Shown here one piece after another: positions 1 through 2,269 of a stretch of DNA of 24,505 bases; position 1 is the first letter of the stretch, and every line of letters starts with the position of its first letter. A model generated the notes under the pieces. The model ran no database searches. It had not been told where the DNA came from and worked only from the letters and a program-made list of their open reading frames with translations. The stretch is taken from positions 1 to 24,505 of the IMG/VR virus record IMGVR_UViG_2548876862_000002; one strand, 5' to 3'. The stretch is from a virus (taxonomy: Duplodnaviria; Heunggongvirae; Uroviricota; Caudoviricetes). Made by a program: the position numbers and the translations under genes.

Positions 1-953
1 ACTTTACAATCTGACCATTCCACTCGCTTCATGCGAATAGGGTTTCGGTTGAGGATAGCCTGCTTAGCCAGGTAATCCACCTCTCCACCGGTTGTTGTGA
101 AATTAAGATGGGAAAACTCAAAAGTGCATTCACCTTCAAACTTCAGCGACTTATAAAGCGAGTAAAGATCGCTGTCGAATTTAAGAATGACGTTTTTATC
201 AACGATTACACGGGAGTTTTGCAGATTTCCTGCCTGTGAGGCCGTTCCTGGTATTGTATAAGTTTTCTTTGTTGCAGAGTGGCAAGGGAAATAAACATAG
301 CCATAGAGATTTACACTCTCCACCCATGCTGCAACAACGTTTGATTGATTGTAAGATGGCATAACGGTGATTGGTATCGGCTCAAATTTATCCACGCCAC
401 CGATCTTTTTCCATCCGTCAGGCTGAGCAAGAAGAATCAGCACTTCACTGGCAGAAGCACTCGGAGGGAGAATGGCTATAGGCTGCCCACTGTCATCCCA
501 GCCAAAAATCATATTCCGGCGACTTGATACCTTTGGCACCAGGTTTACACTGTTTTCAGGAACCCTAAGCGTATTTCTCTGAAGAGCACCGATGTTGAAC
601 ATCGCATGCTGAATAAGCATGGTCAGGTAGTCGAATGCATCCTCATGGACCTCTGCAAAAAATTTCCCCTGATTTCTTAAATCAGTTTCCTGCACTGCTG
701 GAAGGTTACGAGTGATTGATATTGTAATGCCTGGCAAAACAGGAGATGACGTAATAACGCTTCCACCGGAAGATAAGCCAGCACCTGTAACCATGTAATC
801 TGTCCCCAGGATCATTGGAGAAACAAGACCGTCAGCGGTTATTGTGCTTACATCAAGATCTGTGTCTTTAAAAATTCTGAAAGTATATGGGAATGATGTC
901 GTGACTCCATTCCCGAGATACTCATTGTGGCTGATTTCGGTTGAGACTGTCAT
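1..953 (-). CDS. Tailspike / tail fibre protein, N-terminal (virion-binding) part; 5' partial gene running off the left edge
   Basis: ATG at 953-951 preceded by GGAG (spacing about 9). Open frame to position 1, confirmed by manual translation (MTVSTEISHNEYLGNGVTTSFPYTFRIF...DLRNQGKFFAEVHEDAFDYLTM...). Not in the ORF track because there is no stop in the window. The N-terminal motif resembles conserved N-terminal domains of enterobacterial podovirus tailspikes (from memory). Confidence 0.55.
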   Translation of the reverse strand, partial: MTVSTEISHNEYLGNGVTTSFPYTFRIFKDTDLDVSTITADGLVSPMILGTDYMVTGAGLSSGGSVITSSPVLPGITISITRNLPAVQETDLRNQGKFFAEVHEDAFDYLTMLIQHAMFNIGALQRNTLRVPENSVNLVPKVSSRRNMIFGWDDSGQPIAILPPSASASEVLILLAQPDGWKKIGGVDKFEPIPITVMPSYNQSNVVAAWVESVNLYGYVYFPCHSATKKTYTIPGTASQAGNLQNSRVIVDKNVILKFDSDLYSLYKSLKFEGECTFEFSHLNFTTTGGEVDYLAKQAILNRNPIRMKRVEWSDCK

Positions 954-1111: not shown

Positions 1112-1127
1112 CTGTATAAATATACAG
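1112..1127 (+). promoter_or_regulatory. LexA (SOS) box CTGTATAAATATACAG, overlapping a TATAAA -10-like hexamer
   Basis: Exact fit to the CTGT-N8-ACAG LexA operator pattern with an AT-rich centre; the flanks (TA CTGT...ACAG TT) are close to the TACTGTATATATATACAGTA consensus. It lies 21 nt upstream of the ATG at 1149. Confidence 0.7.
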
Positions 1128-1148: not shown

Positions 1149-1406
1149 ATGCAGCAGTATCACTATCCACTGGAAGACGGATTTACCGAAAGGATTCACA
1201 CGCCGGGAGGCGTCAGGTCACTGGTGGAGGGATCGCACTTGATGAAATTACTCCGGGATCTCGATAAGGATGGATTTAATGTCGATGGCCCACTTGCCGA
1301 ACTGACTGCACTGATTAACTACGTCACCAGCTCGCAGATGTCTATGCAGGATCTGCAAACACATCTCGACTATTGTGCCGAACAATTACGAAAACAAACC
1401 AGATGA
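1149..1406 (+). CDS. Hypothetical 85-aa protein, putatively SOS-regulated; no family recognised
   Basis: Internal ATG (M42) of track ORF 1026..1406 with SD GGAG 8 nt upstream; the LexA box sits immediately upstream. Orientation is opposite to the phage late genes. Confidence 0.6.
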   Translation: MQQYHYPLEDGFTERIHTPGGVRSLVEGSHLMKLLRDLDKDGFNVDGPLAELTALINYVTSSQMSMQDLQTHLDYCAEQLRKQTR

Positions 1407-1424
1407 GGTTTGAAATTACCAAAT

Positions 1425-1508
1425 GGAGTGCTTATATTTACCTTTGCGGTAAATTTACATCGCACTCCTCTTGTGCCATAGTAATCGGGCACTGGCAAAA
1501 TCCAGTGC
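1425..1508 (+). repeat. Two stem-loops in the intergenic spacer: a nested inverted repeat (1425-1468) and a perfect 7-bp hairpin (1489-1508)
   Basis: GGAGTGC(1425-1431)...ATTTACC(1436-1442)-tttgc-GGTAAAT(1448-1454)...GCACTCC(1462-1468); GCACTGG(1489-1495)-caaaat-CCAGTGC(1502-1508). No U-tract follows either, so they are not classical terminators. Confidence 0.45.
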
Positions 1509-1593
1509 TGGGATTGGTCTCCCGGATTACTACAGAGTTAGTGCTACACTCATTGACGCCACATTGAGGTGGCTTATAGATGGAAATTTCACA

Positions 1594-1755
1594 ATGAAAA
1601 AAGCATTTGCTGCACTGTTCGTTTTGTTGTCTCTGGTAGCTTCAACTCAGGCCTTTGCCGGTAGTTGTCAGCACGACAGCGACACTGCTGCTGACGGCTC
1701 CCGCTGCGGTGGGCGTTCTGCGGATTCCCGCCCTGGCGGCGGTGGTATTCGTTAA
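1594..1755 (+). CDS. Small secreted peptide precursor (53 aa) with a predicted Sec signal peptide and a Cys/Gly-rich mature part of about 31 aa
   Basis: In-frame ATG (M42) of track ORF 1471..1755. N-terminus MKKAFAALFVLLSLVASTQAFA has a basic n-region, a hydrophobic core and an AxA cleavage motif. SD is weak (GGAAA). Stop TAA at 1753-1755 lies directly before the terminator hairpin. Confidence 0.4.
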   Translation: MKKAFAALFVLLSLVASTQAFAGSCQHDSDTAADGSRCGGRSADSRPGGGGIR

Positions 1756-1778
1756 AAACAAGGCCGCGAAAGCGGCCT
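1752..1778 (-). terminator. Intrinsic terminator shared by convergent transcripts; strongest on the minus strand
   Basis: GGCCGC-gaaa-GCGGCC hairpin (1762-1777). On the minus strand it is followed by TTGTTTTTAAC. On the plus strand it follows the 1594..1755 stop by 6 nt but lacks an immediate U-tract. Confidence 0.55.
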
Positions 1779-1786
1779 GTGACATG

Positions 1787-2083
1787 TCACGTTCCTTTTC
1801 TGAATGATAGCCGTTCGAAAAATGATGACATTCCACCGCAGACAATAGCAAAGATGATCCCACCAAAGAAGAGAAGGCCAGCCTGCCACCACTCCCACCG
1901 CCATACATCCACAGCGCCAACCATACCAACAATCGCTCCAACAAATGGAATATAGCTCACGATGAAAGCAATGGGGGCTGCAATTATCCAGTGCAATCCC
2001 CACCATGATTCAAGCCCAGCCATAATTGCTGCCAACTGAAAAAGACCAACGACGATATAAACAATGAATCCTATAGCTTGCAT
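1787..2083 (-). CDS. Small integral membrane protein (98 aa, about 3 predicted TM segments); holin-like or moron membrane protein
   Basis: ATG at 2083 with SD AGGTGA at spacing about 6. Sequence is dominated by hydrophobic stretches with a W-rich loop. It is the last gene before the minus-strand terminator. Confidence 0.6.
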   Translation of the reverse strand: MQAIGFIVYIVVGLFQLAAIMAGLESWWGLHWIIAAPIAFIVSYIPFVGAIVGMVGAVDVWRWEWWQAGLLFFGGIIFAIVCGGMSSFFERLSFRKGT

Positions 2084-2095
2084 GTAGTCACCTAT

Positions 2096-2269
2096 TTACC
2101 CAGTAAAAATCAGAGGCCTCCCCTCAATAAGGCTTGCAACAAGAACTATTCCCTGCACAACAAAGATGAACCAGCAAATAGCTTGAGTCTGAGGGTTAAG
2201 AAAATATTTGTAGCGGTCAATAAATAACAACCCACCAGAAATTATCACACTCAAAATAATTAAAAACAC
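2096..2269 (-). CDS. Candidate small hydrophobic protein (57 aa, GTG start) with two hydrophobic segments
   Basis: Hand-translated, not in the ORF track (under 60 aa). GTG at 2269-2267 with AAGGAAG upstream. Frame MFLIILSVIISGGLLFIDRYKYFLNPQTQAICWFIFVVQGIVLVASLIEGRPLIFTG, stop TAA at 2098-2096. It is in the same frame as, and 3 codons downstream of, the stop of the 824-aa gene. Confidence 0.25.
   Translation of the reverse strand: MFLIILSVIISGGLLFIDRYKYFLNPQTQAICWFIFVVQGIVLVASLIEGRPLIFTG

What the first reader, a model, noticed from the sequence alone, without database searches (positions are those of the whole stretch)
1594..1755. Predicted secreted Cys/Gly-rich mini-protein downstream of the SOS-regulated gene
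The ORF encodes a classical Sec signal peptide (MKKAFAALFVLLSLVASTQAFA, AxA site) followed by only about 31 residues containing two Cys and a Gly-rich tail. Small exported peptides under SOS control are reminiscent of bacteriocin/microcin-type or envelope-acting effectors. However the SD is weak and the peptide is short, so it could be non-coding.
Basis: partly seen in the sequence, partly recalled or inferred. Interest (0 to 1): 0.5.

Follow-up and report, generated by a model that had tools for sequence, protein, structure and literature searches.

The report
Prophage gene for exported mini-protein
The 53-codon ORF is a real, strongly conserved prophage accessory gene whose product is predicted to be exported and trimmed to a roughly 31-residue peptide with one likely disulfide; it belongs to a large, already catalogued family of unknown function, and its position behind an SOS-controlled gene is peculiar to this phage variant.

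Summary
Window 1594-1755 (+) encodes a 53-aa protein with a canonical Sec signal peptide (AFA|GS) and a 31-aa, two-Cys mature part. It is a real gene. Across 17 Enterobacterales/Tolumonas loci synonymous sites are saturated, while dN/dS is 0.07 for the mature part and 0.16 for the signal peptide. The identical protein is RefSeq WP_000708858.1 and matches PHROG 14503. About 8% of complete E. coli genomes carry the gene. It belongs to a large family (at least 611 clusters at 50% identity) in Enterobacterales, Rhizobiales, cyanobacteria and others, mostly in prophages. The family is defined by the module C-x4-D-x-A-x-D-G-S-R-C-G-x-R-x4-R-P-G-G. It has no Pfam or NCBIfam model, no solved structure, and I found no literature.

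The bacteriocin reading is not supported: no lipobox, no immunity or export partner, no bacteriocin family match. The SOS link is incidental. The upstream gene is the LexA-controlled Ant antirepressor of SPC32H-type phages. In most genomes 2-3.5 kb of other genes and an intrinsic terminator separate it from the mini-gene. The mini-gene also carries its own conserved -10-like box, 5' hairpin and terminator, as a moron does. In this rare deletion variant, SOS read-through is possible but untested. Function remains unknown.

The parts
1594..1755 (+). Mini-protein CDS (53 codons plus TAA), identical to RefSeq WP_000708858.1. Family is PHROG 14503, named 'transmembrane anchored protein' by NCBI.
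   Evidence: purifying selection.
1594..1659 (+). Signal peptide, residues 1-22 (MKKAFAALFVLLSLVASTQAFA). Predicted signal peptidase I cleavage after A-F-A.
   Evidence: In 120 family members, position -5 to the first Cys is A/S/V in 109 and position -3 is A/S in 106, which fits the -3/-1 rule. 115 of 120 have K/R in the first 6 residues plus a hydrophobic core. The AF2 model shows a helix at residues 2-16. Cleavage itself is inferred.
1660..1752 (+). Mature 31-aa peptide GSCQHDSDTAADGSRCGGRSADSRPGGGGIR. It holds the family module C25-x4-D30-x-A32-x-D34-G35-S36-R37-C38-G39-x-R41-x4-R46-P47-G48-G49. Cys codons are at 1666-1668 and 1705-1707.
   Evidence: Invariant and near-invariant columns in alignments A1-A3; dN/dS 0.07. 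The disulfide is inferred from two invariant Cys in an exported peptide.
1543..1550 (+). -10-like box GCTACACT (TACACT at 1545-1550), proposed as the mini-gene's own promoter element.
   Evidence: A TAnnnT box sits in the same aligned column in most of 15 divergent Enterobacterales loci. In TL-2011b it follows the upstream gene's terminator. The two-hexamer scan did not report it. Function is inferred.
1558..1573 (+). 5-bp hairpin GCCAC-ATTGAG-GTGGC in the proposed 5' UTR.
   Evidence: RNAalifold on 15 loci shows double-sided changes that keep the pair at all 5 pairs, for example AU:6 / GC:6 at one pair. A role as a 5' stabiliser is inferred.
1582..1584 (+). Weak Shine-Dalgarno element (GGA), 9 nt before the ATG.
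   Evidence: Read from the sequence. A purine-rich patch is kept at this position in homologues.
1761..1778 (.). GC-rich hairpin AGGCCGC-GAAA-GCGGCCT between the mini-gene and the convergent minus-strand gene 1787-2083. The T-run is on the minus strand. A second small palindrome plus T-rich tract (about 1780-1800) follows on the plus strand.
   Evidence: The hairpin is conserved together with the mini-gene in E. coli and Klebsiella phages.
1112..1127 (.). Context: LexA box CTGTATAAATATACAG in front of ant.
1149..1406 (+). Context: the 'SOS-regulated gene'. It is the Ant antirepressor, 88% identical to the annotated ant of Salmonella phage SPC32H.
   Evidence: KC911856.1, 'ant: anti-repressor protein'; PHROG 450 and 1760.
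1489..1536 (+). Context: two-hairpin core of a C4/IsrK-like antisense RNA that has lost its own terminator. The deletion junction to the mini-gene cassette is at about 1536/1537.
   Evidence: Rfam isrK 42.1 bits (E 2e-7, below the gathering score of 50) and c4-a1b1 31.5 bits. Compared with phiV10, which keeps the terminator and a BRO-N gene. BLAST pieces break at query 537/538.

Best explanation
The ORF is a functional accessory gene (a 'moron') of an epsilon15/phiV10-like (Uetakevirus) prophage.

Proposed mechanism:
1. The 53-aa precursor is exported by the Sec pathway and cut by signal peptidase I after Ala22.
2. This releases a peptide of about 31 residues into the periplasm. Cys25 and Cys38 close a 14-residue loop around the invariant D-x-A-x-D-G-S-R stretch.
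3. That 27-residue module is the functional unit. It is the defining feature of a large, uncharacterised family of extracytoplasmic mini-proteins that ride mainly on prophages of Proteobacteria and also occur in cyanobacteria.
4. I infer that it acts by binding a widely conserved envelope or periplasmic ligand. The most plausible use for a phage is changing the envelope of the lysogen or induced cell, for example exclusion of superinfecting phage.

Expression: the gene is an autonomous cassette with its own -10-like box, a 5' hairpin and a terminator. In this window a deletion has placed it 187 bp behind the LexA-controlled ant gene and a terminator-less C4/IsrK-like RNA. SOS-driven read-through may therefore add to its expression here, but that is not a general feature of the gene.

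Shown: coding status, selection, family membership, distribution, signal-peptide features, cassette anatomy.
Inferred: cleavage, disulfide, promoter activity, periplasmic target and biological role.
For: Coding and selection: dN/dS is 0.07 (mature part) and 0.16 (signal peptide) with saturated synonymous sites.

Family: PHROG 14503 at E 3.9e-39; at least 709 clusters at 90% identity; 611 clusters at 50% identity; 57 loci in species-representative genomes across Enterobacterales, Rhizobiales, cyanobacteria, Vibrio and Bacteriovorax. Invariant residues are C, A, D, G, S, C, G, R, G, G.

Export: the A-x-A|G-N-C pattern and the n/h regions are conserved in 115 of 120 members.

Module is extracytoplasmic and self-sufficient: it occurs as signal peptide plus module only, as tandem modules, as lipoprotein plus module, and as module plus TM helix plus a cytoplasmic helical domain.

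Moron behaviour:
- Present or absent between the same flanking genes in related phages.
- Present in an unrelated myovirus-type prophage end.
- Present in alphaproteobacterial prophages next to tail-fibre or lysis genes.
- Terminators on both sides in TL-2011b.
- Conserved -10-like box and a covarying hairpin.

SOS context: the upstream gene is SPC32H Ant, and no plus-strand terminator is predicted between the LexA box and the ORF in this window.
Against: There is no experimental or homology-based clue to function. Pfam, NCBIfam and PADLOC gave nothing. PDB gave nothing by sequence or by Foldseek, and BFVD gave one non-significant match at E 0.21.

The AF2 model is only moderately confident (pLDDT 75) and mostly coil in the mature part.

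The proposed promoter has no convincing -35 and was not picked up by the two-hexamer scan. The SD is weak.

No conserved neighbour points to a partner or target. The databases call the protein 'transmembrane anchored', so an uncleaved signal anchor cannot be excluded without experiment. The superinfection-exclusion idea is analogy only.
Confidence: 0.6

Rival explanations
1. One reading: an SOS-induced bacteriocin, microcin or colicin-lysis-type envelope effector, co-expressed with the LexA-controlled gene and released or active on DNA damage.
For: A perfect LexA box at 1112-1127 lies 466 nt upstream of the ATG, with no predicted plus-strand terminator in between. The precursor size (53 aa) and its position at the 3' end of the unit resemble colicin lysis genes (my own knowledge). 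Buttiauxella locus L016 also has a LexA box about 0.4 kb upstream of the ATG.
Against: There is no lipobox: N or P precedes the first Cys in 90 of 120 members. There is no Lysis_col, bacteriocin or microcin family hit even at E<=1-10. No toxin, immunity or ABC-exporter neighbour is conserved. In TL-2011b, UMNK88 and EC24 the LexA box is 2.2-3.5 kb away, and a terminator, scanned in TL-2011b and visible in the other two, lies just before the mini-gene. 13 of 20 loci have no strict LexA box within 4 kb. The module also occurs inside larger membrane proteins.
Confidence: 0.05
2. The signal sequence is not cleaved. The product would be a tiny N-terminally anchored inner-membrane protein displaying the 31-residue module on the periplasmic face, as the database name 'transmembrane anchored protein' implies.
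For: The naming in TL-2011b, Klebsiella phages and NCBI records. Relatives exist in which the module is held at the membrane by a lipobox or a C-terminal TM helix, so membrane proximity is compatible with function.
Against: Small residues at -3/-1 (A-x-A) directly before G-N-C are conserved in about 90% of members, as expected for a used peptidase site. The hydrophobic core is only about 13 residues, which is short for a stable anchor. The name is an automatic label and not a tested property.
Confidence: 0.15
3. It is a secreted pro-peptide for a short diffusible signal, in the style of arbitrium AimP or Phr peptides. Only the conserved C-terminal ...SRPGG(x) end would be the active product.
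For: The layout is signal peptide plus short tail, it is phage-borne, and the C-terminal R-P-G-G is nearly invariant.
Against: The whole 27-residue module including both Cys is conserved, not just the tail. The module occurs internally, followed by a TM helix, and in tandem copies. No receptor or oligopeptide-sensor gene is a conserved neighbour. Most hosts are Gram-negative, where a Sec product ends up in the periplasm.
Confidence: 0.05
4. The ORF is spurious or non-coding, and the conserved sequence is an RNA or DNA element.
For: Weak SD and short length. The antisense strand and another frame also show open frames over the same DNA (1642-1944 minus strand, 1655-1807 plus strand).
Against: Variation falls on third codon positions in this frame only (32 of 33, against 13 and 12), and dN/dS is 0.07 with saturated dS. 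Protein-level homologues reach down to about 40% identity in other phyla where DNA similarity is gone.
Confidence: 0.02

Closest known systems
PHROG 14503 / phrog_3117; NCBI 'transmembrane anchored protein' (e.g. WP_000708858.1; AEW24557.1 of phage TL-2011b)
   Same: This is the same family. The profile match covers the full length (E 3.9e-39), and the protein is identical to a RefSeq entry found in hundreds of E. coli genomes.
   Different: Nothing differs in sequence. The family has a label but no tested function, no Pfam or NCBIfam model and no structure. The 77-aa versions (phrog_3117) start at an upstream codon that reads through a terminator hairpin, so they are probably mis-called.
Phage morons (autonomous accessory cassettes such as lambda bor/lom or the HK97/HK022 morons)
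   Same: A small gene inserted between conserved phage genes, present or absent among close relatives, flanked by terminators, carrying its own promoter-like element and encoding an envelope-directed product.
   Different: Promoter activity and lysogen expression are untested. No phenotype is known. The product is far smaller than Bor or Lom and unrelated in sequence.
Periplasmic or envelope superinfection-exclusion and anti-lysozyme proteins of phages (T4 Spackle, T5 Llp, Cor)
   Same: Phage-encoded, exported by a signal peptide, and acting in the periplasm or envelope. This is the working analogy for function, drawn from my own knowledge.
   Different: No sequence or fold similarity. The only Pfam T4_Spackle hit was E 0.065, confined to the signal peptide of one homologue. 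The mature size (31 aa) is much smaller. No exclusion phenotype has been tested.
Colicin lysis (bacteriocin release) lipoproteins
   Same: Precursors of about 50 aa, a mature part of about 30 aa, and the last gene of a LexA-controlled unit (my own knowledge).
   Different: No lipobox, no family match, no colicin or immunity genes, and the SOS linkage is not conserved.
Excalibur extracellular Ca-binding domain (DxDxDGxxCE motif)
   Same: An extracytoplasmic Cys-bracketed loop. D-x-A-x-D-G-S-R-C-G has the same spacing as D-x-D-x-D-G-x-x-C-E (comparison made from memory of the motif).
   Different: The central Asp ligand is an invariant Ala and the final Glu is Gly. The loop is about half as long. 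No Pfam Excalibur hit was found for any of 12 members even at E<=10. Not a member.

Membership tests
PHROG 14503 / 'transmembrane anchored protein' mini-protein family | Full-length profile match | tested here: met
   phrog_14503 at E 3.9e-39 over 1-53/53; phrog_3117 at E 3.2e-35. Identical to WP_000708858.1.
PHROG 14503 / 'transmembrane anchored protein' mini-protein family | Core module C-x4-D-x-A-x-D-G-S-R-C-G-x-R-x4-R-P-G-G directly after a signal peptide | tested here: met
   All invariant columns of A2 and A3 are present in the window protein.
Sec / signal peptidase I substrates | Basic n-region, hydrophobic h-region, small residues at -3 and -1 | tested here: met
   K2 and K3, a 13-residue core, and A20-x-A22. 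The pattern is conserved in the family. This was a rule-based check, since no SignalP tool was available.
Sec / signal peptidase I substrates | Actual export and cleavage | not testable with these tools
   Needs PhoA fusions or mass spectrometry.
Phage moron | Variable presence between conserved flanking genes in related phages, and occurrence in unrelated phages | tested here: met
   Absent in phiV10 and the O26-type prophages, present in TL-2011b, UMNK88, EC24 and Klebsiella phages. Also at a myovirus-type prophage end and in alphaproteobacterial prophages.
Phage moron | Own promoter and terminator | tested here: inconclusive
   Terminators are predicted on both sides in TL-2011b. A conserved TAnnnT box and a covarying hairpin are present. 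There is no good -35 and no transcript data.
SOS (LexA) regulon | LexA box in the promoter that drives the gene | tested here: inconclusive
   In this window the box at 1112-1127 belongs to ant, and read-through is possible because no terminator is predicted. Across 20 loci the box is absent within 4 kb in 13 and more than 2 kb away in 5.
Colicin lysis / bacteriocin release lipoproteins | Lipobox (L-x-[GAS]-C) and a Lysis_col family match | tested here: not met
   The window has A-G-S-C. The family has N or P at -1 in 90 of 120 members. No Pfam or NCBIfam hit.
Microcins / class II bacteriocins | Dedicated leader with adjacent immunity and exporter genes | tested here: not met
   It has a Sec signal peptide instead. 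No conserved neighbours in 66 loci. No family hits.
Excalibur Ca-binding domain | DxDxDGxxCE motif and a Pfam PF05901 match | tested here: not met
   The middle Asp is replaced by an invariant Ala and the Glu by Gly. No Pfam hit at E<=10.

The most novel reading that the evidence does not exclude
The 27-residue module (C-x4-D-x-A-x-D-G-S-R-C-G-x-R-x4-R-P-G-G) is a previously undescribed, self-folding extracytoplasmic mini-domain. It would recognise one specific, widely conserved envelope ligand (a cation, a peptidoglycan or LPS feature, or a conserved periplasmic protein). Temperate phages from Enterobacterales to Rhizobiales would spread it as a stand-alone moron to alter the envelope of their lysogens, for example to block superinfection.
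Probability: 0.3. Interest if true: 0.6.

Novelty: new member of a known kind. Interest (0 to 1): 0.38.

Why it matters
For this window it settles the annotation. The ORF is a true gene for an exported mini-protein and not an SOS bacteriocin, and its closeness to ant comes from a local deletion.

More broadly, it points to a very widespread family. About 8% of complete E. coli genomes carry it, as do many Klebsiella contigs (individual variants on up to 916), Rhizobiales prophages and cyanobacteria. The family is under strong constraint, yet it has no domain model, no structure and no literature that I could find. A 31-residue peptide with a probable single disulfide could be made by chemical synthesis and studied by NMR, so it would be a cheap entry point into what small phage-borne periplasmic proteins do.

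Tried and rejected
- Pfam, NCBIfam and PADLOC scans of the protein, distant homologues, neighbours and fused variants gave only sub-threshold noise.
- PDB by sequence profile gave 0 hits at E<=10.
- Foldseek of the AF2 model found no PDB match and one non-significant BFVD match at E 0.21. The afdb50 library was not available.
- Literature searches for the motif 'DGSRCG' and for 'transmembrane anchored protein' found nothing relevant. The SPC32H Ant paper (Kim & Ryu 2013) is not held; I cite it only through reference lists and a discussion in another paper.
- Neighbour clustering over 66 loci found no universally linked partner gene. The DUF2335/'YafO-like' 181-aa gene often precedes the mini-gene in E. 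coli and Klebsiella, but where checked (TL-2011b and similar loci) an intrinsic terminator lies between them, and it is absent elsewhere.
- A search for alphaproteobacterial general-stress (EcfG-type GGAAC-N-CGTT) promoters upstream of family members found none.
- A test of whether the C4/IsrK-like RNA loops have a complementary target at the mini-gene RBS found none.

Full report
**1. What is there**

Window 1594-1755 (+) is an ORF of 53 codons: MKKAFAALFVLLSLVASTQAFA|GSCQHDSDTAADGSRCGGRSADSRPGGGGIR.

**2. Where the window comes from**

The window is the structural arm of an epsilon15/phiV10-like podovirus prophage (Uetakevirus) of E. coli. The tailspike gene start lies at 1-952 (-) and the ejection-protein genes begin at 2279 (-). 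Between them, on the + strand, sit an 85-aa gene (1149-1406) and the mini-ORF.

RefSeq annotates the mini-ORF as WP_000708858.1, 'hypothetical protein'. In phage TL-2011b and in Klebsiella phages the same gene is labelled '(putative) transmembrane anchored protein'.

**3. It is a real gene**

- It matches PHROG 14503 over its whole length ('membrane associated protein', moron category) at E 3.9e-39, and also phrog_3117.
- Close homologues occur in E. coli, Shigella, Klebsiella, Citrobacter, Cronobacter, Salmonella, Pectobacterium and Dickeya.
- In the alignment the signal peptide drifts while staying hydrophobic. The mature part is almost invariant.
- Codon analysis used 17 loci: the window, three phage records, 12 Enterobacterales species and Tolumonas. 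Synonymous differences are saturated (pS about 0.70). Non-synonymous differences are low (pN 0.13 for the mature part, 0.23 for the signal peptide). This gives dN/dS of about 0.07 and 0.16.
- In the mature part 32 of 33 third positions vary, against 13 first and 12 second positions.

This excludes a non-coding element. It also identifies the overlapping frames (1642-1944 minus strand, 1655-1807 plus strand) as artefacts.

The gene with its flanks is present at 93% identity or more over 80% or more of a 254-nt query in 422 of 5,426 complete E. coli genomes. The exact protein sits on at least 135 contigs, and Klebsiella variants on hundreds more.

**4. The family is much larger than the phage context suggests**

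A pattern scan of one genome per species found 57 loci. They include 12 Enterobacterales, Tolumonas, Vibrio, about 30 Alphaproteobacteria (Mesorhizobium, Rhizobium, Agrobacterium, Devosia, Methylobacterium, Bradyrhizobium and others), 9 cyanobacteria, Rhodoferax, Bacteriovorax and a Polyangiaceae MAG.

A profile search returned at least 709 clusters at 90% identity. An exhaustive HMMER search returned 611 clusters at 50% identity with E<=1e-3.

The invariant core is C25, A32, D34, G35, S36, C38, G39, R41, G48, G49. D30, R37 and R46 are present in 90% or more of members. Written out, the module is C-x4-D-x-A-x-D-G-S-R-C-G-x-R-x4-R-P-G-G.

Most members are just a signal peptide plus this module, 46-55 aa long, ending one residue after PGG. 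The E. coli form has a GGIR extension.

Across 120 members:
- Position -5 to the first Cys is A/S/V in 109.
- Position -3 is A/S in 106.
- Position -2 is G in 100.
- 115 have a basic N-terminus plus a hydrophobic core.

That is a conserved A-x-A|G-N-C signal peptidase I site, so the predicted mature peptide is 28-33 residues. N or P directly before the Cys in 90 of 120 members rules out a lipobox for the family as a whole. A few cyanobacterial and Beijerinckiaceae members do have a separate upstream lipobox.

The module also occurs in other arrangements:
- Tandem copies (P0136, P0138, P0158).
- C-terminal to larger secreted regions (Nostoc, Bacteriovorax).
- As the N-terminal extracytoplasmic part of 210-290-aa proteins, followed by a TM helix and a cytoplasmic helical domain.

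So the module is a portable extracytoplasmic unit.

**5. What it resembles**

Nothing described.
- No Pfam or NCBIfam family was found for the window protein or for 14 diverse relatives.
- No PADLOC hit.
- No PDB relative by profile.
- AF2 with an 89-sequence alignment gave pLDDT 75. It shows a signal-peptide helix and a mostly irregular mature part with one beta-bridge at residues 31 and 37.
- Foldseek found nothing in PDB and one non-significant match in BFVD.
- Full-text searches for the motif and for the database name found no relevant paper.

The spacing D-x-A-x-D-G-S-R-C-G recalls the Excalibur motif D-x-D-x-D-G-x-x-C-E, which I compare from memory. The middle ligand is an invariant Ala, however, and no Excalibur hit appears even at E<=10. 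I therefore do not file it there.

**6. Genomic behaviour: a moron**

In related Uetakevirus prophages the stretch after the 85-aa gene varies:
- Nothing (O26-type prophages).
- A BRO-N antirepressor only (phiV10).
- BRO-N, other genes, a 181-aa DUF2335/'YafO-like' gene and then the mini-gene (TL-2011b, UMNK88, EC24, Klebsiella BUCT711).
- The mini-gene alone. This is the window's layout. Only strains HN257 and NADC1036 match it at 100% coverage, which is 2 of 5,426 genomes.

The DUF2335 plus mini-gene pair also sits at the end of an unrelated myovirus-type prophage next to pinE.

Alphaproteobacterial members lie in prophages beside terminase/portal genes, tail-fibre genes or lysis genes. One lies in a Rhizobium prophage that carries a homologue of the window's 824-aa ejection protein. 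One Mesorhizobium locus looks chromosomal. No neighbour is conserved across the family.

**7. How it is expressed**

Upstream regions from 20 Enterobacterales/Tolumonas loci (15 were aligned) share a recurring layout:
- The terminator of the preceding gene, for example AGCCCGCAGCGCGGGCTTTTTT in TL-2011b.
- About 20 nt later, a TAnnnT box (GCTACACT in the window at 1543-1550; TACAAT in Klebsiella).
- 7-8 nt later, a 5-bp hairpin (1558-1573) that covaries at all five pairs.
- Then CTACACA and a purine-rich patch before the ATG.

A GC-rich hairpin shared with the convergent gene follows the stop codon (1761-1778).

I read this as a self-contained transcription unit whose mRNA begins at a protective 5' stem-loop. 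The GC at -14/-13 is reminiscent of sigma-S-type -10 elements. Both points are inferences from memory, and no transcript data exist. The -35 is poor (TGGACG-like) and in the window it has been replaced by other sequence.

**8. The SOS question**

The 85-aa gene is 88% identical to the annotated ant antirepressor of Salmonella phage SPC32H. A perfect LexA box at 1112-1127 precedes it. That this Ant is LexA-controlled is my recollection of Kim & Ryu 2013, which I could not open; another paper describes the Ant/Rep mechanism.

Between ant and the mini-gene lies the two-hairpin core of a C4/IsrK-like antisense RNA at 1489-1536. It scores 42.1 bits against Rfam isrK (E 2e-7, below the gathering score of 50) and 31.5 bits against c4-a1b1. 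A promoter-like TTGAAA-17-TATATT sits at 1410-1438.

phiV10 has the same RNA complete with its own terminator, followed by a BRO-N antirepressor. That layout resembles phage P1 immI.

In the window the RNA's terminator and the BRO-N gene are gone. The BLAST pieces break at 1536/1537. No plus-strand terminator is predicted between the LexA box and the mini-gene. Read-through from P_ant, or from the small-RNA promoter, is therefore plausible here.

Elsewhere it is not a feature of the gene. Of 20 loci, 13 have no strict LexA box within 4 kb, 5 have it 2.1-3.6 kb away, and only the window and Buttiauxella have it within 0.6 kb.

**9. Verdict**

- 'Exported mini-protein' is supported by sequence features and family conservation, though export and cleavage are untested.
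- 'SOS-controlled' applies at most to this rare deletion variant.
- 'Bacteriocin/microcin-like' is not supported.

The best-supported model is a Sec-exported periplasmic mini-protein of about 31 residues, probably stapled by a disulfide, encoded by an autonomous moron. It most likely acts by binding a conserved envelope component. A role in superinfection exclusion or envelope conditioning is my preferred guess, at about 0.2-0.3, and remains untested.

The gene is already catalogued and is a member of a known kind (a phage moron encoding a small exported protein), so novelty is modest. The residual interest is the size and conservation of a family for which I found no function, structure or domain model.

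Noticed in passing
window 1407-1556: A truncated C4/IsrK-like antisense RNA lies directly behind the LexA-controlled ant gene. Rfam isrK scores 42.1 bits (E 2e-7) and c4-a1b1 31.5 bits, both below gathering. The two hairpins are at 1489-1536. A promoter-like TTGAAA-17-TATATT at 1410-1438 sits inside a long hairpin (1425-1468). The 201-nt region folds with z = -4.0. phiV10 keeps the RNA's terminator and a BRO-N antirepressor behind it, which gives a P1 immI-like second antirepressor module in Uetakeviruses.
   Followed up: partly
window 1149-1406 with LexA box 1112-1127: The 'SOS-regulated gene' is the small Ant antirepressor of SPC32H-type epsilon15-like phages: 88% identity to KC911856.1 ant and 84% to epsilon15 gp19. 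Most phage records still annotate it as 'hypothetical protein'.
   Followed up: yes
L003 3363-3908, L005 3364-3909, L068 4417-4962, L069 4411-4962: A 181-aa gene frequently precedes the mini-gene in E. coli and Klebsiella prophages of different types. It is annotated either as a DUF2335 membrane protein or as a 'YafO family toxin'. In the E. coli loci an intrinsic terminator lies between it and the mini-gene. No PADLOC hit. It is absent from this window.
   Followed up: partly
window 1787-2083 (-) and 2096-2269 (-): Two small hydrophobic ORFs converge on the mini-gene. The 98-aa one is phrog_3075, with a weak holin-like Pfam hit at E 0.027. The 57-aa one has no significant match. RefSeq annotates only the 98-aa one.
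   Followed up: no
NZ_CP076267.1 (38,709 bp record of E. coli NADC1036), hit H21: The same 1.3-kb stretch is present at 99.6% identity both in the chromosome and in a separate 38.7-kb record of strain NADC1036. This suggests the prophage was also assembled as an excised circular genome.
   Followed up: no
proteins P0161, P0164, P0166, P0185, P0192, P0198, P0200 (alignment A6); locus L073 979-1677: A subfamily of 210-290-aa proteins has a signal peptide or lipobox, the CDYPDDRAxDGSRCGDRAASVRPGGRNPDTDW module, a TM helix, a low-complexity linker and a C-terminal five-helix domain. That domain is predicted at pLDDT about 98 and has no Pfam or PDB match. It sits among small unknown genes and an H-NS-like gene.
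   Followed up: partly
window 1425-1468 vs L002 (phiV10) equivalent: The inner hairpin TTTACC-TTTGC-GGTAAA in the window reads TTTACC-GCAAA-GGTAAA in phiV10. The loop is exactly reverse-complemented while the stem is kept.
   Followed up: no
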